From IMG/VR virus record IMGVR_UViG_2526164597_000009: a stretch of 37,945 bases of DNA, one strand, 5' to 3'. Every line of letters starts with the position of its first letter. Positions within the stretch are counted from its first letter, which is position 1. Positions 1,054 to 12,869 of the stretch are shown here, in pieces. Under the pieces are notes generated by a model. That model made no database searches and was not told the DNA's origin. It saw nothing but the letters and a program-made list of their open reading frames with translations. The position numbers and the translations under genes were made by a program. This DNA comes from a virus (taxonomy: Duplodnaviria > Heunggongvirae > Uroviricota > Caudoviricetes).

Positions 1054-1078
1054 AAAAAATGCCCTCCAGTGGAGAGCA

Positions 1079-1106
1079 TTTTTACTGTATGTATAACCAG
1101 TGTCAA
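1079..1106 (-). promoter_or_regulatory. Candidate sigma70 promoter for int (-35 TTGACA, -10 TAAAAA) overlapping a near-consensus LexA-like box at 1085..1100
   Basis: Minus-strand TTGACA (plus 1101..1106), 16-bp spacer, TAAAAA; plus-strand CTGT-N8-CCAG at 1085..1100. Confidence 0.3.
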
Positions 1107-1142: not shown

Positions 1143-1748
1143 TTATCTTTCTACTTCCCAGCGTAGAGATTGCATTAACATAGCATAAATATTGAACAGG
1201 AAAGTTTTTAAAGTTAATACAAGGAACACTGCACTGCTTCCTACGAGTATATATAGTATTTGAACTCCAACAACTTTAGTGCAATGAGAAAACATTAAGG
1301 CTCTGAGTAATTTTGTAGCCAATCCATTTTCTTGCCCGAAAAGAAGGACTAAAAGATAGATAACAGACCAAAATATGAAATATATAAATACTCTCATAAA
1401 TACGCCATAAACATATTTTAAGTAACTTATCCCGTATAATGGATGCTTATACTCCATTAATGAAAGGAAAAGTTCAGGTTTATTTATGGTTGCAAATATT
1501 GTAAATCCAGTAATTAAAAAACCTAATGTTGTTGTAGTGAATCCGAATACTAAAGGTGTCCATTGTCTAATAGATGAAATTAACTCTGGTGATGAAGATA
1601 GACAAAAAGCATTAATAGATAATAATATCACTAATAATAATGTGAAATAAAAGTCAAATGAATTGACCTTTATTTTTTTAGTTAATTTGTAAACATCATG
1701 CAAAGATCGCTCTTTGGTCAGATCTTCTGGGTTGAATGTATATTTCAT
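1143..1748 (-). CDS. Hypothetical inner-membrane protein (about 4 predicted TM helices), last gene of the repressor-proximal cargo cassette
   Basis: 201-aa ORF in low-GC DNA; hydrophobic stretches such as LLLVILLSINAFCL, LVFGFTTTTLGFLITGFTIFATI, VFIYFIFWSVIYLLVLLFG, FLVLTLKTFLFNIYAML; start is 1 nt from upstream ORF stop. Confidence 0.6.
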   Translation of the reverse strand: MKYTFNPEDLTKERSLHDVYKLTKKIKVNSFDFYFTLLLVILLSINAFCLSSSPELISSIRQWTPLVFGFTTTTLGFLITGFTIFATINKPELFLSLMEYKHPLYGISYLKYVYGVFMRVFIYFIFWSVIYLLVLLFGQENGLATKLLRALMFSHCTKVVGVQILYILVGSSAVFLVLTLKTFLFNIYAMLMQSLRWEVER

Positions 1749-1749
1749 A

Positions 1750-2214
1750 CTATAGCCACCTAGAAATTATTGATGTTAACTTGGAAAAAATTTTAGTATA
1801 ATCTTCACGTTCTGGAATAATAATATTTCCTGCATCCTTTAATTCTGTGAATGCAGAATACGCCTCTTGAGCAGCTCTTTCCAAATCAGAACTAAGTTGT
1901 GGCCTTGATGCTTTTAGAGTAAAACTATCATTATTCCCTGATAGCCTTGCTCCGTGTTCATCTTTACCACTTATAATTACTTTAGAGTTGGCCATTCGGG
2001 TTGCACTTGTTGTTTTTTGAATGACGGCCTCAGAATTTAAACCATCTTCATTTTTATTTGTGTATACTAATTGAGCTTTACTACTATTAAGTTCTTCTTT
2101 TTCTTGTTCAATTTTCCTCCAGAAGCCATCAAGAGATATATTTTCACTATTTGTTGGCAATAACTCAATTGATAATCTATTAACAACAGAAAAGAGTTCA
2201 ACAAAATTGCTCAA
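1750..2214 (-). CDS. Hypothetical protein; probably the C-terminal part of a frameshifted about 348-aa gene (with 2294..2797)
   Basis: ORF begins with TTG and no good RBS; its frame is open upstream into the 3' end of the preceding ORF. Confidence 0.4.
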   Translation of the reverse strand: MSNFVELFSVVNRLSIELLPTNSENISLDGFWRKIEQEKEELNSSKAQLVYTNKNEDGLNSEAVIQKTTSATRMANSKVIISGKDEHGARLSGNNDSFTLKASRPQLSSDLERAAQEAYSAFTELKDAGNIIIPEREDYTKIFSKLTSIISRWL

Positions 2215-2293
2215 TGATCTTGGGTCTGTTAAGGGGGTAACCCGTAATTTGGGGGCTCCTAGTTTACGATAAATATCTTTTTTATACAGTCGA

Positions 2294-2797
2294 TCAATGT
2301 ATGATTTTTCTTTCTAATTCTTTTATTTTTTTTACTTCGTAATCCACAAAAGAATTATATCGCTGTGCAAGGCAATACTTGCTAGTATTTTCAAATTCTT
2401 CTAGGGTAGGGGCTCCAGAAACCTCTTTGCAAAGCATTAATCTGTGCTCATTAAGCATAAGAATAAAAATAGAGCTGGGGTGACTTTCTAGCGTCCTGTG
2501 ATCTCGAATTAATTGACCATCTTGAAATATTTGATCTCGTTTAAATATGGTCTTTTTTATAATGCGGCCACACAATGCAATTGTTGGAACTATAGGACCA
2601 ATAAAATCTGAATCTGTAGTATCTAACGTAATAATTTTTGTGTCAGTAAAGAAATATTCTGTATCTTTAAATTTTCTAACGTATTTTTGTGCGAAAAATG
2701 AAGGAAAAACAATGCAATCAAAAGCATCTAAGAGAACTTTGTCCTCTCCAAAATTTAAGGTATAGTTTGCAAATTCAATAGTTTTCGTAAAGCTCAT
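2294..2797 (-). CDS. Hypothetical protein; probably the N-terminal part of a frameshifted cargo gene
   Basis: 167-aa ORF in low-GC DNA starting 2 nt after the repressor stop; ends at an A5/T5 homopolymer (plus 2305..2309) where a 1-nt shift joins it to the next frame. Confidence 0.5.
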   Translation of the reverse strand: MSFTKTIEFANYTLNFGEDKVLLDAFDCIVFPSFFAQKYVRKFKDTEYFFTDTKIITLDTTDSDFIGPIVPTIALCGRIIKKTIFKRDQIFQDGQLIRDHRTLESHPSSIFILMLNEHRLMLCKEVSGAPTLEEFENTSKYCLAQRYNSFVDYEVKKIKELERKIIH

Positions 2798-2799
2798 TG

Positions 2800-3741
2800 T
2801 TAAACCCTTTTTCTAATTATTCCTTTAACTTTATTATTAAATTCCAAATCTTCTTTATCGCATTCAAAGCTATATTTTGTGTTTTCAACGCGGATGCGAT
2901 TGTTTGGAAGTTTAAATATGTCTCTAAAAGTAAATTCTCCGTTAATAGATACTAACCATAGACCATCGCTAAGATACTCCTCTTTGCTAATGATATATGA
3001 ATCATTTGCGGAATTAACTATATAGGGATGTTTTAAATTTTGAGGTAAAATTTCGCTCGAAACGATTAATTCTCTTTGATCAGTAAGTTTGCCGTCACGT
3101 AGATCATAGCAGTCTAATGTAAGCAACCCACTTAGCTTTGTTTGATTGGAATGCCCCTTACCAAAAGATAACCACTCGAGAGACACTCCTGTTTCTAAAC
3201 AGCATTGGATGATCCAGTCTGCCGGAAAAATGTCTCGCATGTATCGTGTAGCTAATGTGCTTTTTGAGATACCAAGGTGATCGGCTAAGGCTTGGCGCGT
3301 TTTGTAACCGTAAGCCTTAACAATTCGCTCTATTGCTGCTTTACCCCCTCGAGTGAAATCCATGTGGTTTTCATTATCGAACTTTATCGTGGGGGTGTGA
3401 ACTTCATTGCAAAATTCATCTGCAGACTGTTTTTCAGCATGCCGTTCTGGCGAAGGAGCTGGCACTCCTTCTTCAGCATCTAAACCAAATGCTAACCATT
3501 CGATTGATGCGCCAGTTTCCATTGAACATATAACAACCCAATCAGCAGGGAAGGTATCGCGTGCATATCTGTTAGCCATTGTACTTTGTGAAATACCAAG
3601 GTGGTTACAGAATGCTTGGCGTGATTTGAAACCATAGGCCATGAGTATTCTCTCAATGACTTTTTGCCCTCCTCGATTCTGCATGACCATGGCTTTCAGA
3701 TGATCTTCAACATGGCGAAATGTGATTTTATTAGTTGACAT
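2800..3741 (-). CDS. cI: Phage 186 CI-type immunity repressor with tandemly duplicated N-terminal HTH domain
   Basis: 313 aa; two about 65 percent identical modules (GGQKVIERILMAYGFKSRQAF...EWLAFG and GGKAAIERIVKAYGYKTRQAL...EWLSFG) then a C-terminal domain (GLWLVSINGEFTFRDIFKLPNNRIRVENTKYSFECD) resembling the 186 CI C-terminus as I recall it. Confidence 0.75.
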   Translation of the reverse strand: MSTNKITFRHVEDHLKAMVMQNRGGQKVIERILMAYGFKSRQAFCNHLGISQSTMANRYARDTFPADWVVICSMETGASIEWLAFGLDAEEGVPAPSPERHAEKQSADEFCNEVHTPTIKFDNENHMDFTRGGKAAIERIVKAYGYKTRQALADHLGISKSTLATRYMRDIFPADWIIQCCLETGVSLEWLSFGKGHSNQTKLSGLLTLDCYDLRDGKLTDQRELIVSSEILPQNLKHPYIVNSANDSYIISKEEYLSDGLWLVSINGEFTFRDIFKLPNNRIRVENTKYSFECDKEDLEFNNKVKGIIRKRV

Positions 3742-3763: not shown

Positions 3764-3829
3764 CCGTTTTGTGAAGTTTTCGTCACGATTAATACCGGCT
3801 CACCACAAGCCAATAGGAGATGTTGCATC

Positions 3830-4051
3830 ATGACCCCTAACATTTCAATAACTCTGAATACGCCGCACGTCACAATTGAGCGTTATAGCGAACTTACTGG
3901 TCTTTCTATCGACACAATCAACGATATGCTGGCTGATGGTCGCATCCCTCGTCATCGCCTTCGGAAAGACAAGAAAAGAGAAAAGGTAATGATCAACCTT
4001 GCTGCTCTTACCGTTGATGCACTTACTGATTGCAATGTTGTATTCAACTAG
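3830..4051 (+). CDS. apl: Apl/Cox-like excisionase and transcriptional regulator (small HTH protein)
   Basis: 73-aa ORF with AGGAGA RBS 9 nt upstream of ATG at 3830; position between repressor and cII as in phage 186. Confidence 0.6.
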
Positions 4052-6487: not shown

Positions 6488-7314
6488 AAGAAATGCACCA
6501 CGGAATTCATCATTTCCATGGGACGCCTGTCTGGGGAAGTGCTGGCGACGTTCATCGTATTGCGGTGAGCGGAGCTGGTGCTTTCGTCTCCTATGTACGA
6601 CCAGATCAGATTGCGGCGTCCATTCAGCACGCCCAGGTCGTTGGCATTGATAACGGCGCATTTTCTGCATGGGTGCGTGGGCTAAAAATTAACTGGAATG
6701 ATTTTTATAAATGGCTCCTGAACTATTACCACCATCCTAAGGTCGCTTTTTTTGTCATTCCTGATGTTGTGGACGGAGGTGAACGTGACAATGATGCCCT
6801 GATAAACGAAGTTCCGAAAATGTTCTACGGGAAGGCAACTCCCGTCTGGCATCTGCACGAGTCAATCGATCGGCTTATCGAGCTATGTCGTGAATGGCCT
6901 CGTGTCTGCTTTGGATCGTCTGGTGAATATGCGGCTATTAGAACTGCGCACTGGCATCGTCGTATGCAGGACGCTTTTGAAGCAATTTATTGCCGACACA
7001 ATTTCAAAACAGCTGTTCATGGTTTGCGCATGCTTGACGGTCGTGTGTTGGGAAATTACCCACTGGCGACTGCCGACAGTACAAATCTTGCCTGCAATGT
7101 CCCCAAATTTAATAGCAAATATCCTGAGCTTACGCGGGCTATTCAGGAGGCTGAGTATTCGCGCAATCTGACGGAAAAGGAGCTGAAAGCTGTCATTCTG
7201 AAAAACCGTTGCGCAATTTTAAAAGGTGCAATTGAAGCTGTTCGCCCACCTTCAGTTTCTGACTGGCTGTCGAATGGTTTGCAGCCTTCACAGCTCGAAC
7301 TGGAGATTGCGTAA
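6484..7314 (+). CDS. Hypothetical enzyme translationally coupled to Dam and A; possible DNA-modification function
   Basis: 276-aa ORF with GTG start overlapping dam stop; motifs [35 protein letters not shown] faintly recall the TGT/DpdA TIM-barrel pattern (unverified). Confidence 0.55.
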
Positions 7315-9686
7315 TGAACTACAGCTATTCCTGGAATGCTGAGAAAAAAGCAATCAATCCTTACGTAGAGACAGAAGAGCAATCTTCAGTTTCTGCGCTT
7401 TCAAACCTGATCGCTCTGTACGCTGCCGATAACGAGCAGGAACACCTGCGCCGCGAGGTACTGAGTGATCAGGTCTGGGAGCGTTATTTCTTTAATGAAT
7501 CCCGTGATCCTGTTCAGCGCGAAATGGAGCAGGATAAGCTCATTAGTCGGGCAAAGCTGGCGCATGAGCAGCAGCGTTTTAATCCAGATATGGTCATTCT
7601 GGCGGACGTCAATGCCCAGCCTTCCCATATCAGCAAGCCGCTGATGCAACGTATTGAATACTTCAGCAGCCTTGGCAGGCCAAAGGCTTATTCCCGCTAT
7701 TTGCGTGAGACGATTAAGCCATGTCTGGAACGGCTGGAGCATGTGCGCGACAGTCAGCTATCCACTTCTTTTCGCTTTATGGCAAGCCATGAAGGGCTGG
7801 ACGGCCTGCTGATTCTGCCTGAAATGAGTCAGGATCAGGTGAAACGCCTGTCCACCCTTGTTGCTGCGCATATGAGCATGTGCCTTGATGCAGCTTGTGG
7901 CGATTTGTATGCCACCGATGACGTTAAGCCAGAAGAAATCCGCAAGACATGGGAAAAGGTGGCAGCAGAAACCCTGCGACTGGATGTCATACCGCCTGCG
8001 TTTGAGCAACTCCGCCGGAAAAGAAACCGCCGTAAACCCGTGCCCTATGAACTCATTCCGGGTTCGCTGGCGCGTATGTTGTGCGCCGACTGGTGGTACC
8101 GGAAATTATGGAAGATGCGTTGCGAATGGCGGGAAGAGCAGTTGCGTGCTGTTTGCCTGGTCAGCAAAAAAGCATCTCCCTATGTCAGCTATGAAGCCGT
8201 GATGCATAAACGTGAGCAGCGCCGTAAGTCGCTGGAGTTTTTCCGTTCTCATGAACTGGTGAACGAAGACGGCGACACGCTGGACATGGAGGATGTGGTA
8301 AACGCCAGCAGCAGCAACCCTGCGCATCGCCGCAATGAGATGATGGCCTGTGTTAAAGGTCTGGAGCTTATCGCGGAAATGCGCGGTGACTGCGCCGTTT
8401 TCTACACCATCACCTGTCCGTCACGTTTCCATTCCACGCTAAATAACGGCAGGCCCAACCCAACCTGGACAAATGCGACGGTAAGACAAAGCAGTGATTA
8501 TCTGGTCGGCATGTTTGCTGCATTTCGTAAGGCGATGCACAAAGCCGGATTGCGGTGGTATGGCGTGCGGGTGGCTGAGCCGCATCATGACGGTACAGTT
8601 CACTGGCACCTGTTGTGTTTTATGCGCAAAAAAGACCGCCGCACCATCACTGCATTACTGCGTAAGTTTGCCATCCGTGAAGACCGCGAGGAGCTGGGCA
8701 ATAACACTGGGCCGCGCTTTAAGTCTGAGTTGATTAACCCGCGCAAAGGTACGCCAACAAGCTACATCGCGAAATACATCAGTAAGAACATTGACGGGCG
8801 TGGTCTGGCTGGCGAGATCAGCAAGGAAACGGGGAAATCCCTGCGTGATAATGCTGAATACGTTAATGCCTGGGCGTCTCTGCATCGTGTTCAGCAATTC
8901 CGCTTCTTTGGCATTCCGGGGCGTCAGGCTTACCGTGAACTGCGATTGCTGGCTGGTCAGGCGGCAAGGCAACAGGGGGACAAAAAAGCAGGTGCGCCGG
9001 TACTGGATAACCCGCGCCTTGATGCCATTCTGGCTGCTGCTGATGCTGGTTGTTTTGCCACCTACATCATGAAGCAGGGTGGCGTACTGGTTCCCCGCAA
9101 ATATCACCTCATCAGAACTGCTTATGAAATCAACGAAGAGCCGACCGCCTATGGCGATCACGGCATTCGTATTTATGGCATCTGGTCACCTATTGCAGAG
9201 GGCAAGATCTGCACTCATGCCGTGAAGTGGAAAATGGTTCGTAAGGCCGTTGACGTTCAGGAGGCGGCAGCCGACCAGGGCGCTTGCGCCCCTTGGACTC
9301 GTGGCAATAACTGTCCCCTTGCTGAAAATTTGAACCAACAGGAGAAAGATAAATCAGCTGATGGGGGCACTAGAACGGACATTACCCGCATGGATGACAA
9401 GGAGTTGCACGATTACCTGCACAGTATGAGCAAAAAAGAGCGCTGGGAACTGGCAGCAAGGTTACGCCTGGTTAAACCGAAACGGCGTAAAGACTACAAA
9501 CAGCGAATTACAGACCATCAGCGACTGCAGCTCGTCTATGAGCTGAAGTCCAGAGGATTTGATGGTAGCGAGAAAGAGGTCGATTTACTCCTTCGCGGCG
9601 GCAGTATTCCGTCAGGAGCAGGCCTGCGTATCTTCTATCGGAACCAGCGTTTGCGGGAAGATGATAAGTGGCGGAACCTGTATTAA
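7314..9686 (+). CDS. A: Replication initiation endonuclease (P2 gpA-like rolling-circle HUH endonuclease)
   Basis: 790 aa; HUH motif VHWHLLCF and tyrosine motif YIAKYISK; position after early operon. Confidence 0.9.
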
Positions 9687-9780
9687 TTCCGCGGGCTAAC
9701 AATTCGTGCTCTTAATAATACCAGGCATATCATGCTAATGAATGTAAAAAAACGTTTTACATCAGTAAGATTATTATATA

Positions 9781-9796
9781 CTGTAAATATAAACAG
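9781..9796 (+). promoter_or_regulatory. LexA box (CTGT-N8-ACAG) in the promoter of the tum/dinI-like operon
   Basis: Perfect CTGTAAATATAAACAG about 45 nt upstream of the ATG at 9840, adjacent to AT-rich -10-like sequence. Confidence 0.6.
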
Positions 9797-9839
9797 TGGT
9801 TATGCATACAGTGTTGCTTGTGGTGTCATAGGAGGAAAA

Positions 9840-10028
9840 ATGCAGGACTATTTTTTGGAGTCTTTGAAGCTCCAGCGCATTGATTTTTTTCTTAAGCTTG
9901 TAGCGGCTAGTGAGTGTAGTGATGAAGAGAAGGGGCTGGCTCTGCAGTGGGTTTCTGAATTGACTGATGAACTCATGGCAAAGATCAGAATCCACGAATA
10001 CAACCGCTCAATGGATGTCATCAGTTGA
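9840..10028 (+). CDS. Small SOS-regulated protein, possible Tum-like antirepressor N-terminal module
   Basis: 62 aa; strong AGGAGG RBS; immediately downstream of the LexA box. Confidence 0.4.
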   Translation: MQDYFLESLKLQRIDFFLKLVAASECSDEEKGLALQWVSELTDELMAKIRIHEYNRSMDVIS

Positions 10029-10038
10029 GGTGGCTTTT

Positions 10039-10272
10039 ATGCGCATTGAAATAATGATCGATAAAGAGCAGAAAATTAGCCAGTCTACTCTGGACGCCCT
10101 TGAATCCGAGCTTTACCGCAATCTGCGCCCCCTGTATCCCAAAGCGGTAATTCGTATCCGTAAAGGTAGCTCTAATGGTGTGGAACTGACCGGACTGCAA
10201 CTGGACGAAGAAAGAAAACAAGTGATGAAAATTATGCAGAAGGTGTGGGAAGACGACAGCTGGCTGCATTAA
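10039..10272 (+). CDS. dinI: DinI-family protein
   Basis: 77 aa, MRIEIMIDKEQKISQSTLDALESELYRNL...WEDDSWLH resembles E. coli DinI (MRIEVTIAK...ETWESADDWF); GAGG RBS. Confidence 0.7.
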   Translation: MRIEIMIDKEQKISQSTLDALESELYRNLRPLYPKAVIRIRKGSSNGVELTGLQLDEERKQVMKIMQKVWEDDSWLH

Positions 10273-10538
10273 GAAACGTTGCTGGCGTCTGAACTTGCTT
10301 CTGACGTCAGCAACGTTGAACAACTAGTTTAGTGGGGCATTAGTCATGGGGTAAAATACAGTAACCATTATTTTCACTTCCGCTCAGATTTAACCGAACG
10401 TTAGTTTTGCTACGTATGATGGGCTGCAAATTACCTTTTGGGATTTGTGATAGATACGAAAATCCTATTAGATGCTTGTTAGACCGGAAGCGCCACTTCG
10501 AACGAAAAGTAATGGCCACTTATGCCGGTTTAAAAGCC

Positions 10539-11069
10539 TTAACCTTGTATAGTTATTTGAATATTTTCTTCATTAACACCAAAGTATAGGGCTAGCCCTG
10601 CTTTTGCCTCCTGAAGTGTTAACGGCTTAACTACATTTTCTTCTTCTTCTTCGTACTCATCACCCGCTTGATCGACAATCGAATTAGTCGGGGTTAATTT
10701 TGGAAGAGCTTTAAATTCCAACTTGTCAGCCTCAATGCCAATGTCTTTGAGGTTGCGATAAGATACGGGATTCCGATTGCCATCCCATTGTCCTGGGATG
10801 TCAATTTCAGCATAAGAATTGATGTTTATGATCCAGCGTTTAGGGTTTTCTGGAGCCCTGCTTACTCCCGAGATTCGACCGATCATAAAAGCATGATGAT
10901 GTTTTGCTTCTTGTGATCCCCAGTCCTTTCTCGAATTTTGTACACAAACTAAATATTCGTGCTTAGCTGCATGGCTGGCGTCAAGTCTCCATGCTTGGCT
11001 TCCCCCTGTGTTCAAAATCTCTGTTAAACCACGAGCAGTAAGTACAGTAATACAGTTGGTAGTAGCCAT
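10539..11069 (-). CDS. Hypothetical cargo protein (orphan gene in the cos-proximal variable region)
   Basis: 176-aa ORF on the opposite strand to neighbours, in low-GC DNA; acidic DEYEEEEEN tract; no family recognised. Confidence 0.5.
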   Translation of the reverse strand: MATTNCITVLTARGLTEILNTGGSQAWRLDASHAAKHEYLVCVQNSRKDWGSQEAKHHHAFMIGRISGVSRAPENPKRWIININSYAEIDIPGQWDGNRNPVSYRNLKDIGIEADKLEFKALPKLTPTNSIVDQAGDEYEEEEENVVKPLTLQEAKAGLALYFGVNEENIQITIQG

Positions 11070-11385
11070 TGAATTGTGACCCCGTCTTTTTTAGAGAAAT
11101 ACTATTGATGAATGTAGTTTACGTATTTTTTTATGGAGTAGTCAAGTTAGTATTATGCTCATTATTGGCTGTTTGTTGAGTATTGTGAGTTAGTACTTTG
11201 TGTAGTACCTCTTGATTTATGAGAATTAAATCTAAGTTATGACAAAGGGAGGCAGGGGGAACGCGCAGCGCAAGGTGGACAGGAGGCCATAAGGACTCAC
11301 TTGAAGTAAGAAAAGATCGATAAAGCAACAATGCATGTCTATGCCGCATGAATTCGCATGATCGTTTGAGGATCGTTTTAGCTGA

Positions 11386-11414
11386 GGCCCGCCAGGAATG
11401 GCGGGCTTTTGTTT
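11386..11414 (+). terminator. Rho-independent terminator (stem GCCCGCC/GGCGGGC followed by TTTTGTTT)
   Basis: 7-bp GC stem, 6-nt loop, T-rich tail on the plus strand; about 40 bp upstream of cos. Confidence 0.6.
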
Positions 11415-11455
11415 ATGTCATGCAAGTGCATGAAAACCACTACATAAAGCGGGCT

Positions 11456-11474
11456 GGCGTGGCGGGGATACGAG
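11456..11474. other. Candidate cos site (cohesive-end sequence GGCGTGGCGGGGATACGAG)
   Basis: Resembles the P2/186 19-nt cohesive end (GGCGAGGCGGGGAAAGCAC as recalled); located upstream of Q 3' end in the A-to-Q interval. Confidence 0.45.
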
Positions 11475-11787
11475 CGCGCGCAACGTGCATGATATGGCAA
11501 TATGCATAACCTAGTTGATGAGATGTCTTGCCACTAATAATATTAAAACGATTGAAACATGTGTTCCGTCCGTACCATAATCTTTAAGTGGGTGCAGGGC
11601 TAAATTGTATGATGAAGTATCATATTGCTTCTGAATACTAATGGATAAGTACACGATTGATGTGATGTTATTGCTGACTATTTTTTGTTCTAGTCTTACC
11701 GAAGACCCAACACGGGAGAAGAAATAGAAATTAATTGCGTGCCCTTTAAGTGCACAATTTAGCAACAATTTAAAAATGAGGTGAACA

Positions 11788-12186
11788 GTGAAAGAGTTGG
11801 AACTATATAATCTGAATTTTTATTTTAGCTTGTGTACTTCAGATGAAGTGGAAAGAATAAAAAATGTATCAAACTCGGCGGATTACTTACTCAAAATTAG
11901 GGCTAATGCAACTATAGAACATATCAGAATCCATCGGGTATTACTAGCTGCAATGCGTAGAAGTGGAAATAATTGGTCATTAAGTAGTTATTTTGATGAT
12001 TCTCCTTTTGAGGATTATATTGATGATGTTTCTGAACAGTACAAAGAACATCTAGAAGGGATCTCTGGCGGATTTGTATTTTGCAATGATCCGAATGGTC
12101 GGATATTAAAAACTGATTATGGATGTGTGATTACTATTTCAGAATCACTTAAGTATTTTTTGTATTACATGAATTTAGCTTTTTAA
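11788..12186 (+). CDS. Hypothetical protein; likely N-terminal part of a frameshifted HEXXH-peptidase gene
   Basis: 132-aa ORF with GTG start and AGGTG RBS; ends just after a T6 run (12156..12161) where a -1 shift enters the downstream frame. Confidence 0.45.
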   Translation: MKELELYNLNFYFSLCTSDEVERIKNVSNSADYLLKIRANATIEHIRIHRVLLAAMRRSGNNWSLSSYFDDSPFEDYIDDVSEQYKEHLEGISGGFVFCNDPNGRILKTDYGCVITISESLKYFLYYMNLAF

Positions 12187-12251
12187 CTTTTGATGATTGT
12201 GATGTTCCTGATGATGTAAGAATTGCTGCATTAAGAATTGCAATAAGAACT

Positions 12252-12869
12252 ATGATGCAAAAGGAATCAATGGATTTTGAAATTGATCCACGTGGTATAA
12301 TTCCATCACAAATTGATATGGAAATTAGGTACCATGTAAATGATGTGATGAAGTTTATTGTTGGTCATGAATATTCACATTACGTACTTGGGCATTTGAA
12401 TGATGAATCAACTTTCGAGGCGAGTTTTTTAACCTCTATTGATACGGAAGAAGTTAAACACAAATTTTTCTCCTATGACCAAAAGGATGAACTAGCAGCA
12501 GATATTCATTCTTTACGAATGTTGTCGCTTTCTAAAGAAAAATTGGCTGGGTTAATTCAAAAGGTTTGTATCTACTTCGTGTTCATGGATATATATTCAA
12601 ATGTAAAAGATCAGGTGTCACCTTCACTTAATTTCACAAAGACTCACCCTGAACCAATGGATAGGCTTAGAAATATCATAGAAGAGTTTAAGGAGGAAGT
12701 GGAAATTGATTATAATGAAATGGATAAGTTCATCAGATCAGGTGAGGTCATAAAGGGTTTCTTGCAAGATGATGCTGGGTATAATTTTGATGAAATATAT
12801 GATTTTTATGGATCAATTTATTTAGGTCAGTGGAGGGGAAAGCCGTTAATAGATAGGGTAGACTATTGA
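12252..12869 (+). CDS. HEXXH zinc metallopeptidase-like protein (ImmA/IrrE-like motif); likely C-terminal part of a split about 360-aa gene
   Basis: GHEYSHYVLGH motif near residue 38; the frame is open 33 codons upstream of the ATG without a start codon or RBS. Confidence 0.55.
   Translation: MMQKESMDFEIDPRGIIPSQIDMEIRYHVNDVMKFIVGHEYSHYVLGHLNDESTFEASFLTSIDTEEVKHKFFSYDQKDELAADIHSLRMLSLSKEKLAGLIQKVCIYFVFMDIYSNVKDQVSPSLNFTKTHPEPMDRLRNIIEEFKEEVEIDYNEMDKFIRSGEVIKGFLQDDAGYNFDEIYDFYGSIYLGQWRGKPLIDRVDY

What the first reader, a model, noticed from the sequence alone, without database searches (positions are those of the whole stretch)
9770..10272. SOS-controlled operon with a perfect LexA box, small protein and DinI homologue (186 tum-like induction module)
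A consensus LexA box (CTGTAAATATAAACAG) sits in the promoter of a two-gene unit: a 62-aa protein with a strong RBS and a clear DinI-family protein. In phage 186, prophage induction depends on a LexA-repressed antirepressor, Tum. I recall the Tum C-terminus as DinI-like, but this is not verified. Here the same content may be present as two separate ORFs in different frames, each with its own RBS, or as a split tum.
Basis: partly seen in the sequence, partly recalled or inferred. Interest (0 to 1): 0.55.

Follow-up and report, generated by a model that had tools for sequence, protein, structure and literature searches.

The report
LexA-controlled split tum (tumA–dinI) operon
This is the DNA-damage switch of a P2/186-like prophage, a LexA-repressed promoter driving a small anti-repressor (TumA) and a DinI homologue, and it is real but already described for phages PSP3 and Fels-2.

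Summary
A LexA box (9781-9796) overlaps the -10 of a promoter. That promoter drives a 62-aa ORF (9840-10028) and a DinI-family ORF (10039-10272), just downstream of the P2/186 replicase gene A.

The DinI ORF is 40% identical to residues 71-145 of 186 Tum. The 62-aa ORF has no BLASTP match to Tum, but its family profile matches the Tum N-terminal half (hhalign 96.8%, E 3e-10). It is 97% identical to Fels-2 STM2728. PSP3 annotates the same pair as tumA and tumB, and Lemire et al. 2011 state that tum is split in Fels-2 and PSP3, so the arrangement is already known.

Details I added:
- The operator is a colicin-type pair of overlapping LexA boxes (25 of 31 bases match ColE1 cea), conserved in 24 of 33 related loci.
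- The tumA-dinI junction varies in spacing and frame, so no fused product is made.
- dinI is missing or broken in about a third of loci.
- TumA does not co-vary with its presumed target, the 186-type CI.

The pair occurs in 1125 of 5426 complete E. coli genomes. No function was tested here. Low interest.

The parts
9756..9761 (+). -35 hexamer TTTACA of the p95-like promoter
   Evidence: It lies 17 nt upstream of TACTGT. T at -25 and -24 relative to the box is invariant, and the hexamer as a whole is strongly conserved in 33 related loci. It corresponds to the annotated -35 TTCACA of 186 p95. The simple promoter scanner misses this promoter because the -10 matches only 3 of 6.
9779..9784 (+). 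-10 hexamer TACTGT, lying inside LexA box 1 (alternative: TATACT at 9777-9782 with a 15-nt spacer)
   Evidence: It is the same hexamer and the same overlap with the LexA site as the annotated -10 of 186 p95. Positions -4 to +3 are nearly invariant across the loci. The assignment is by analogy; no transcript start was mapped.
9781..9796 (+). LexA box 1, CTGTAAATATAAACAG (20-mer 9779-9798)
   Evidence: It scores 23.2 bits with the PSSM and ranks 2nd of 37,926 positions. It is conserved in all 33 analysed loci.
9796..9811 (+). LexA box 2, GTGGTTATGCATACAG, sharing one base pair with box 1 (a colicin-type double operator)
   Evidence: 25 of 31 bases match the ColE1 cea operator CTGTATATAAAACCAGTGGTTATATGTACAG. 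The double pattern is expected 0.04 times per window. It ranks 3rd in the window at 11.4 bits, and the same box scores 16-20 bits in relatives. It is present in 24 of 33 loci, and conservation collapses right after it. Binding of a second LexA dimer is inferred.
9830..9835 (+). Ribosome-binding site AGGAGG of tumA
   Evidence: Sequence. [AT]AGGAG[GA] is conserved before the ATG in most related loci.
9840..10028 (+). tumA: a 62-aa presumed antirepressor, homologous to the N-terminal half of 186 Tum
   Evidence: hhalign against the Tum N-half gives 96.8% probability, E 2.7e-10. It is 96.8% identical to Fels-2 STM2728. It matches PHROG 698, 'unknown function', and no Pfam family. It shows a coding signature. 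AlphaFold2 predicts a two-helix hairpin, H2-23 and H28-61, at pLDDT 89.5.
10027..10030 (+). Ribosome-binding site GAGG of the DinI gene, overlapping the tumA stop codon
   Evidence: Sequence. A G-rich RBS sits at or just after the tumA stop in all relatives that carry dinI.
10039..10272 (+). tumB/dinI: a 77-aa DinI-family protein
   Evidence: Pfam PF06183, E 7e-23. It is 40% identical to 186 Tum residues 71-145, 99% to the Fels-2 DinI and 77% to PSP3 TumB. It aligns over residues 1-77 of E. coli DinI, PDB 1GHH.
10275..10317 (+). Strong stem-loop ending the operon (presumed terminator or 3' stabiliser), with no U-tract
   Evidence: Free energy is -27.8 kcal/mol, z = -5.0, and 0 of 200 shuffles fold as well. 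The structure is kept through compensatory changes in relatives. It directly follows tumA where dinI is absent (L011, L020, L037). There is no Rfam match.
2800..3741 (-). cI: a 186-type immunity repressor and the presumed target of TumA
   Evidence: Pfam finds two Phage_CI_repr HTH domains plus Phage_CI_C, and no peptidase S24 domain. It lies next to a Cox/Apl-sized ORF at 3827-4051, which has no Pfam hit and is assigned by position only, and next to a 186-type cII (PF06892). The targeting of CI is inferred from 186.

Best explanation
This is the SOS induction module of a Fels-2/186-like (Peduoviridae) prophage, in its two-gene 'tumA-tumB' form.

Proposed mechanism:
1. In an undamaged lysogen, LexA occupies two overlapping boxes. 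These cover the -10 and the start region of a p95-like promoter and keep it shut.
2. Sustained DNA damage activates RecA and LexA cleaves itself, so the promoter fires.
3. TumA, a 62-aa two-helix protein homologous to the N-terminal half of 186 Tum, accumulates and binds the 186-type CI repressor. This CI has no self-cleavage domain. Binding takes CI off its operators, so the early lytic promoter switches on and the prophage is induced.
4. The co-transcribed DinI homologue, equivalent to the C-terminal half of Tum, binds RecA filaments and tunes the SOS signal. It is accessory.
5. A strong hairpin ends the operon.

Shown here: the sequence elements, the homologies, the gene context and the evolutionary conservation.
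Inferred from 186, PSP3 and Fels-2: LexA binding, SOS induction, the TumA-CI interaction and the role of DinI.
For: Context:
- The module lies directly after gene A (Phage_GPA, E 9e-128). The same prophage carries a 186-type CI and cII plus an Apl-sized ORF assigned by position only.

Promoter and operator:
- The -35 / 17 nt / TACTGT / LexA-box layout is the same as the annotated 186 p95.
- It is conserved in 33 loci from many enterobacterial genera, whereas the leader beyond the boxes is not.
- The double box matches the ColE1 cea operator at 25 of 31 bases. PMC2994835 describes colicin operators as binding two LexA dimers.

TumA:
- The profile-profile match to the Tum N-half is 96.8%, E 2.7e-10. 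The Tum N-half in turn matches PSP3 TumA at 85.9%, E 5e-6, in the same register.
- It is 96.8% identical to Fels-2 STM2728.
- PSP3 tumA is annotated 'UV induction of prophage'.
- PMC3121763 reports that the upstream PSP3 gene carries the antirepressor activity, and that Fels-2 and PSP3 have a split tum.
- PMC7708051 describes 186 Tum as a LexA-controlled anti-CI factor that sequesters CI.

Two real genes rather than a fusion:
- The stop-to-ATG spacing is 3, 9, 10, 11 or 12 nt and all three relative frames occur.
- tumA shows purifying selection.

DinI is accessory:
- It is absent from about 12 of 33 loci and truncated or frameshifted in L019 and L036, while tumA and the LexA operator persist.
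Against: - No experiment was done on this sequence or on this TumA type in the material I could read. The primary Fels-2 paper (Bunny, Liu and Roth 2002) was not available, and the PSP3 activity is a personal communication cited second-hand.
- TumA has no pairwise BLASTP similarity to 186 Tum or to PSP3 TumA. The direct profile match to PSP3 TumA is weak (11%).
- TumA identity does not co-vary with CI. TumA cores that are 100% identical sit beside CIs sharing only 57-65% identity in the N-terminal domain and 28-35% in the C-terminal domain (Mantel rho -0.06 and -0.14). A specific binding pair would not obviously behave this way.
- Box 2 of this window is weaker (11.4 bits) than any site in my training set (minimum 12.9).
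- The -10 hexamer is poor, and the promoter scanner reports nothing here.
Confidence: 0.85

Rival explanations
1. The pair is a decayed or recoded tum. On this view a single 186-like tum gene was broken by a stop or frameshift, and is either a pseudogene or is restored to a fused Tum by programmed frameshifting or readthrough.
For: - 62 + 77 aa is close to the 146 aa of 186 Tum.
- In this window the DinI frame is open for 72 nt upstream of its ATG (ORF 9967-10272), so a +1 shift near the end of tumA would give a fusion.
Against: - The junction differs among relatives: spacing is 3 to 12 nt and the relative frame is 0, 1 or 2. Each dinI has its own RBS and ATG.
- tumA keeps a 62-codon ORF with a strong third-position bias across 30 sequences.
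- tumA-only operons exist.
- Stand-alone N-half proteins are also common in the 186-type family itself, at 63-78 aa and named 'Tum protein'.
- No fused member of this TumA type appeared among 1.84 billion representative proteins.
Confidence: 0.03
2. The 62-aa protein is an SOS-induced small protein with a different job and is not the antirepressor. It might be a partner or modulator of DinI, RecA or LexA, or a superinfection or host-takeover factor.
For: - There is no Pfam family, and PHROG 698 is 'unknown function'.
- The predicted fold is a generic helical hairpin with no significant PDB match.
- TumA does not co-vary with CI.
Against: - The profile homology to the Tum N-half covers the whole conserved core.
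- It has the same position, promoter type and partner gene as PSP3 tumA and 186 tum.
- It occurs without dinI in about a third of loci, so it does not depend on DinI.
- A 186-type CI lacking a cleavage domain lies upstream in every locus where the flank reaches far enough, and such a repressor needs an antirepressor for SOS induction.
Confidence: 0.1
3. The LexA-like sequence is a chance AT-rich palindrome. On this view the operon is expressed constitutively or from read-through of the gene A transcript.
For: - CTGT-N8-ACAG alone is expected 0.55 times per window.
- No sigma-70 promoter was reported by the scanner.
Against: - The box, its partner box, the -35 and their spacing are conserved in 33 loci whose surrounding sequence has diverged completely.
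- The site is positionally equivalent to the annotated LexA site of 186 p95.
- It ranks 2nd of 37,926 positions by PSSM.
Confidence: 0.02

Closest known systems
Salmonella phage Fels-2, STM2728 / STM2726.1 (split tum)
   Same: - TumA is 96.8% identical and DinI 99% identical.
- It has the same double LexA operator, and the Fels-2 operator matches ColE1 at 28 of 31 bases.
- It has the same position after gpA.
- The literature describes Fels-2 tum as split by a stop codon (PMC3121763).
   Different: - Fels-2 CI has a single HTH domain and is only about 41% identical to the window's CI.
- The sequence after dinI differs: Fels-2 lacks the hairpin at that spot and has a 243-aa ORF next.
Phage PSP3 tumA / tumB
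   Same: - It has the same two-gene layout behind a LexA box (TACTGTATAAATATACAGTA).
- tumB is 77% identical to the window's DinI.
- It has the same downstream hairpin and conserved GTTGAACAAC motif.
- Its CI also has two HTH domains.
   Different: - PSP3 TumA (60 aa) has no BLASTP similarity to the window's TumA, and the direct profile match is only 11%. The two link up through the 186 Tum N-half.
- It has a single LexA box and a 3-nt in-frame junction.
Coliphage 186 Tum (p95-tum SOS operon)
   Same: - It has a LexA-repressed promoter whose -10 lies inside the box, placed after gene A.
- Its N-half is homologous to TumA and its C-half to DinI.
- Its target is a 186-type CI.
   Different: - 186 makes one 146-aa fused protein plus internal-start products.
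- It has a single LexA box.
- orf97 follows on the same strand, ending at canonical U-tract terminators.
Colicin operators (ColE1 cea) with two overlapping SOS boxes
   Same: - Two 16-bp boxes share one base pair, with the second box starting GTGG.
- 25 of 31 bases are identical.
- Such operators are described as binding two LexA dimers and giving very tight repression (PMC2994835).
   Different: It controls a prophage antirepressor and not a toxin. No additional repressor or late-induction behaviour has been shown here.
Gifsy prophage dinI-gfoA/gftA operons
   Same: A LexA-controlled operon pairs a DinI homologue with a small antirepressor, and the repressor is not cleaved (PMC3121763).
   Different: The gene order is reversed, with dinI first. 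The antirepressors and repressors are unrelated lambdoid types.

Membership tests
Tum/TumA antirepressor of 186-like phages | Sequence homology to the N-terminal (non-DinI) half of 186 Tum | tested here: met
   hhalign of A3 against A4 gives 96.8%, E 2.7e-10, over 52 columns in register. BLASTP alone finds nothing.
Tum/TumA antirepressor of 186-like phages | Transcribed from a promoter overlapped by a LexA box, located after replication gene A | tested here: met
   This is sequence-level evidence only.
Tum/TumA antirepressor of 186-like phages | The same phage encodes a 186-type CI (Phage_CI_repr + Phage_CI_C) with no self-cleavage domain | tested here: met
   Pfam on 2800-3741. A CI homologue was found by tblastn (E<=1e-3) in 27 of the 33 related loci; the 6 without one are L007 and L009 (1.2- and 2.2-kb contigs) and L012, L014, L031, L035 and L036 (full 8-kb upstream flanks).
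Tum/TumA antirepressor of 186-like phages | Transcription induced by the SOS response and blocked in lexA(Ind-) | not testable with these tools
   Needs a reporter fusion or RNA measurement.
Tum/TumA antirepressor of 186-like phages | The protein binds CI and prevents operator binding, and its expression alone induces the prophage | not testable with these tools
   Known for 186 Tum (PMC7708051) and reported second-hand for PSP3 TumA. The lack of TumA-CI co-variation neither proves nor excludes it.
DinI family (PF06183) | Pfam score above the gathering threshold over the whole domain | tested here: met
   81.2 bits against 24.2, covering profile positions 1-63 of 63.
DinI family (PF06183) | Conserved C-terminal helix (I-x-Q-x-x-W-E ... 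D-W) aligned with E. coli DinI | tested here: met
   Alignment to 1GHH over residues 1-77: IMQKVWEDDSW against ILQETWESADDW.
DinI family (PF06183) | Binds RecA filaments and modulates coprotease activity | not testable with these tools
   Biochemical assay needed.
Colicin-type double SOS operator | Two 16-bp LexA boxes overlapping by one base pair | tested here: met
   Boxes at 9781-9796 and 9796-9811. 25 of 31 bases match ColE1. Conserved in 24 of 33 loci.
Colicin-type double SOS operator | Simultaneous binding of two LexA dimers | not testable with these tools
   Box 2 of this window scores only 11.4 bits. A footprint or gel shift is needed.

The most novel reading that the evidence does not exclude
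The Fels-2-type TumA may be a generalist antirepressor. It would recognise a feature shared by many 186-type CI repressors of different immunity specificity, so one damaged cell would co-induce every resident P2-like prophage of this group. Its conserved colicin-type double LexA operator would act as a high-threshold, late-firing timer.

The evidence does not exclude this:
- Identical TumA cores sit beside CIs that share only about 30% identity in the C-terminal domain and about 60% in the N-terminal domain.
- One locus (L026) pairs this TumA with a CI that is 60% identical to 186 CI.

An alternative reading is that the lack of co-variation reflects frequent module shuffling, with specificity carried by a few residues.
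Probability: 0.3. Interest if true: 0.45.

Novelty: already known. Interest (0 to 1): 0.2.

Why it matters
It explains how this very common prophage type is induced by DNA damage even though its repressor cannot cleave itself. The module is found in 1125 of 5426 complete E. coli genomes and in Salmonella, Klebsiella, Citrobacter, Enterobacter, Pantoea and others.

The practical value lies mainly in annotation:
- RefSeq and PHROGs still call the 62-aa gene 'hypothetical' or 'unknown function', and some records call it 'levan regulatory protein'.
- It can be named TumA with reasonable confidence.

Two details are testable and bear on the timing of induction and on cross-talk between co-resident prophages. 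They are the conserved double LexA operator and the lack of TumA-CI co-variation. Both extend a known system and do not define a new one.

Tried and rejected
- **Pairwise BLASTP.** TumA against 186 Tum, TumA against PSP3 TumA, and PSP3 TumA against 186 Tum all gave no alignment. Only profile comparison worked.
- **Family and structure databases for TumA.** Pfam gave nothing. PDB sequence search with the family profile gave nothing. A Foldseek search of the AlphaFold2 model against PDB gave only generic helical hairpins, with best E 2.3, which is uninformative.
- **Promoter scanner.** It found no promoter at 9600-10700 because the -10 matches only 3 of 6. I placed the promoter by analogy with 186 p95 and by conservation.
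- **Weak terminator-like hit at 10017-10034.** This spans the tumA stop. I rejected it as a terminator because it is the dinI RBS region, and the junction sequence there is not conserved among relatives.
- **Rfam on 9600-11200.** No match.
- **First double-box pattern on ColE1.** It had one N too many and found nothing. I corrected it.
- **Bunny, Liu and Roth 2002.** This primary Fels-2 lexA paper is not held.
- **Literature search for TumA/TumB/PSP3.** It returned only unrelated papers.
- **PADLOC on the six neighbouring cargo ORFs.** No hits.
- **Programmed frameshift fusion.** I considered and rejected it.
- **TumA-CI co-variation test.** It was negative.

Full report
**1. What is there**

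The window is a P2/186-like (Peduoviridae) prophage. Gene A, the replicase, occupies 7314-9686 (Pfam Phage_GPA, E 9e-128).

In the 153-bp gap after gene A the sequence reads TTTACA (9756-9761), 17 nt, then TACTGT (9779-9784).

Two short ORFs follow:
- AGGAGG, four bases, ATG at 9840, then a 62-codon ORF ending at 10028.
- GAGG overlapping that stop codon, ATG at 10039, then a 77-codon ORF ending at 10272, in a different frame.

The second ORF is an unambiguous DinI-family protein (PF06183, 81.2 bits against a cut-off of 24.2). It aligns over its full length with E. coli DinI, PDB 1GHH. A strong hairpin at 10275-10317 closes the unit (-27.8 kcal/mol, z = -5.0).

**2. Is the LexA box more than chance?**

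The bare 4-N8-4 pattern is not significant. It is expected 0.55 times in a window of this size and composition. Four other lines of evidence support it.

With it, the 20-mer 9779-9798 scores 23.2 bits, above the median of the training sites (20.5), and ranks 2nd of 37,926 positions.
- The box occupies the same place as the annotated LexA site of the 186 p95 promoter. There the -10 hexamer is the same TACTGT, inside the box.
- I fetched 33 loci that encode relatives of the 62-aa protein, from Escherichia, Citrobacter, Kluyvera, Serratia, Raoultella, Enterobacter, Lelliottia, Leclercia, Klebsiella, Pantoea, Tatumella, Erwinia and others. In the 33 sequences analysed (the window, Fels-2 and 31 of those loci) the -35, the TATACTGT and the box are nearly invariant. 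The spacer and the leader after the boxes carry almost no information.
- The scanner's failure to call a promoter here is explained by the weak -10, which matches 3 of 6. The same is true of p95.

**3.

Immediately after box 1, and sharing its last G, lies GTGGTTATGCATACAG (9796-9811).

The 31-base unit CTGTAAATATAAACAGTGGTTATGCATACAG matches the ColE1 colicin operator CTGTATATAAAACCAGTGGTTATATGTACAG at 25 of 31 positions. I located that operator in the ColE1 record. The Fels-2 version matches it at 28 of 31.

The evidence for box 2:
- The double pattern is expected 0.04 times per window, even allowing two mismatches.
- Box 2 is the third-best PSSM hit in the window at 11.4 bits. That is weaker than any training site.
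- In relatives the same box, usually CAGTGGATATATATACAGTT, scores 16-20 bits.
- It is present in 24 of 33 loci, and conservation falls to background right after it.
- The Pantoea, Erwinia and Tatumella members, like 186 and PSP3, have a single box.

I infer that two LexA dimers bind here and that the operon is a tightly repressed member of the SOS regulon. This has not been shown.

**4. What the two proteins are**

*The DinI ORF.* It is 40% identical to residues 71-145 of 186 Tum (E 1e-23). It is 99% identical to the Fels-2 DinI and 77% to PSP3 TumB.

*The 62-aa ORF: what the standard searches give.*
- No Pfam family.
- PHROG 698, 'unknown function'.
- No pairwise similarity to 186 Tum or to PSP3 TumA.
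- 96.8% identity to Fels-2 STM2728.

*The 62-aa ORF: how wide the family is.* The family is narrow. An exhaustive HMMER search of 1.84 billion representative proteins found 62 clusters, all of short proteins. None carries a DinI domain after the match.

*The 62-aa ORF: the profile evidence.*
- I aligned 26 diverse members. The consensus is MxDLFxESLxLQRIxLxxRLVAxSxCSxxDKELAxxWxxELTxEL.
- I aligned 16 members of the 186 Tum N-half family.
- The two profiles match over 52 columns, residues 1-48 in register, at 96.8% probability and E 2.7e-10.
- The Tum N-half profile also matches PSP3 TumA in the same register (85.9%, E 5e-6). The direct match between the window family and PSP3 TumA is weak (11%).

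So the 62-aa protein is a divergent homologue of the antirepressor half of Tum.

*The 62-aa ORF: predicted structure.* AlphaFold2 with the family alignment predicts a two-helix hairpin (helices 2-23 and 28-61, pLDDT 89.5). The conserved cysteine sits at the turn. No solved structure resembles it significantly.

**5. Two genes, not a broken one**

- Across relatives, the distance from the tumA stop to the dinI ATG is 3, 9, 10, 11 or 12 nt.
- All three relative frames occur, and each dinI has its own G-rich RBS. This excludes a conserved frameshift or readthrough fusion.
- tumA shows a clear coding signature. Variable sites by codon position are 21/11/50, and there are 473 synonymous against 206 non-synonymous codon differences.
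- dinI is absent from about 12 of 33 loci and is truncated or frameshifted in L019 and L036.
- In L011, L020 and L037 the tumA stop is followed directly by the hairpin that normally follows dinI.
- The 186-type N-half also occurs widely as a stand-alone protein of 63-78 aa, named 'Tum protein' by NCBI.

Fusion and fission of the two halves have therefore happened repeatedly. The N-half is the constant component and DinI is the optional one.

**6. Mechanism**

The prophage carries a 186-type immunity region:
- CI at 2800-3741 on the minus strand, with two Phage_CI_repr HTH domains plus Phage_CI_C and no peptidase domain.
- An Apl-sized ORF, which has no Pfam hit and is assigned by position only.
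- A 186-type CII.

In 186, induction works through SOS derepression of p95 and Tum, an anti-CI factor that sequesters CI reversibly (PMC7708051). The 186 record annotates Tum as inhibiting CI DNA binding.

For the split form there are two sources:
- The PSP3 record annotates tumA as 'UV induction of prophage'.
- Lemire et al. 2011 (PMC3121763) state that Fels-2 and PSP3 have tum split by a stop codon, and that the upstream PSP3 gene encodes the antirepressor and the downstream one the DinI homologue. They cite Bunny, Liu and Roth 2002 and a personal communication from G. E. Christie.

The most likely mechanism for the window follows these steps:
1. LexA cleavage opens the promoter.
2. TumA binds CI and releases the early lytic promoter.
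3. DinI modulates RecA.

Steps 1 to 3 are inferred by homology and context. My confidence is about 0.85.

**7. One observation that does not fit neatly**

TumA does not co-vary with CI. Over 25 loci, pairwise identity of the TumA core is uncorrelated with identity of either CI domain:
- CI HTH domain: Mantel rho -0.06, p 0.67.
- CI C-terminal domain: Mantel rho -0.14, p 0.91.

Identical TumA cores accompany CIs that share about 60% (HTH) and about 30% (C-terminal) identity. Phages with 97-98% identical TumA have CIs that are 41-52% identical to the window's. The Pantoea stewartii locus L026 pairs this TumA type (84% identical) with a CI that is 60% identical to 186 CI.

Two readings are possible:
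- This TumA recognises a conserved CI feature and is a generalist. That would allow cross-induction between co-resident prophages, as Lemire et al. showed for Gifsy antirepressors.
- The immunity and tum modules are shuffled faster than they co-adapt.

I cannot decide between them.

**8. Comparison with known systems, and novelty**

At protein level the module is essentially the Fels-2 one. In organisation it is the PSP3 tumA/tumB pair, and it is a homologue of 186 p95-tum.

It occurs in 1125 of 5426 complete E. coli genomes, where it is annotated 'hypothetical protein' plus 'DinI-like family protein'. It also occurs in 67 phage records.

The finding is real and correctly interpreted, but it is already known. 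The increments from this analysis are:
- the explicit profile-level link of this TumA type to Tum;
- the conserved colicin-type double operator;
- the dispensability of dinI;
- the absence of TumA-CI co-variation.

These are refinements. Interest is low (0.2).

Noticed in passing
window 1078-1106 (minus strand), upstream of int (ATG at 1053): The best LexA-like site in the whole window is at 1083-1102: TACTGTATGTATAACCAGTG on the plus strand, 23.3 bits. The CTGT-N8-ACAG pattern misses it because it ends in CCAG. It fills the spacer of a near-consensus promoter, TTGACA-17-AAAAAT, which lies 25 nt upstream of a GGAGGG RBS and the integrase start. The identical box is present in L005 at 1135. The segment is 99% identical in the Klebsiella phage 4LV2017 group. 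This suggests an SOS-controlled int gene, possibly because three cargo genes separate int from cI here.
   Followed up: partly
window 2800-3741 (minus strand): The CI repressor is 313 aa, with two tandem Phage_CI_repr HTH domains that are 60% identical to each other, plus one Phage_CI_C domain. 186 CI and all 24 genomic relatives whose CI was recovered have one HTH domain and are about 190-218 aa. PSP3 CI (286 aa) also has two, and Klebsiella phages 4LV2017 and ST11-OXA245phi3.1 match over the full length. The architecture is therefore known but in the minority.
   Followed up: partly
window 10275-10345; L003 3556-3620; L005-L027 just after dinI: The hairpin after dinI is kept by compensatory changes. 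Examples of the stems are GCTGGCGTC/GACGTCAGC, GCGGACG/CGTCCGC, CGCCCCCA/TGGGGGC and GCTGCCAGCGATAAAA/TTTTATCGCTGGCAG. It is followed by a conserved sequence, GGTTGAACAACGAG-N6-8-GCGAGGCGTTAG, and has no U-tract. There is no Rfam family. It could be an atypical terminator, an RNA 3' end, or the boundary of the cargo hot spot that follows.
   Followed up: partly
window 1143-2797 (minus strand) and 10539-12869: There are two cargo islands at the classical P2 hot spots.
- Three ORFs of 201, 154 and 167 aa lie between int and cI. The first looks like a multi-pass membrane protein, and the only family hit is a weak DUF4747 match.
- After the tum operon lie a 176-aa minus-strand ORF (PHROG 37247, unknown function) and two plus-strand ORFs of 132 and 205 aa with no hits.
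None matches Pfam at threshold or PADLOC.
   Followed up: partly
window 9742-9762: A perfect 8-bp inverted repeat, ATGTAAAA-N5-TTTTACAT, overlaps the -35 hexamer of the tum promoter. A near-identical copy is in Fels-2 (arms ACGTAAAA/TTTTACAT in L002, so one arm position differs). In other relatives only the A-run plus TTTACA is kept. Upstream of it, CATATCA(T/G)G is shared with 186 and PSP3. I have no function to propose.
   Followed up: no
window 10344-10363: A weak LexA-like half-site, TCATGGGGTAAAATACAGTA (11.0 bits), is the fourth-best in the window. It lies in the untranslated gap after the hairpin. It is probably chance.
   Followed up: no
database annotation of the 62-aa protein: Some phage and UniRef records name this protein 'levan regulatory (domain) protein'. 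Nothing found here supports that name, and it looks like a propagated mis-annotation.
   Followed up: no
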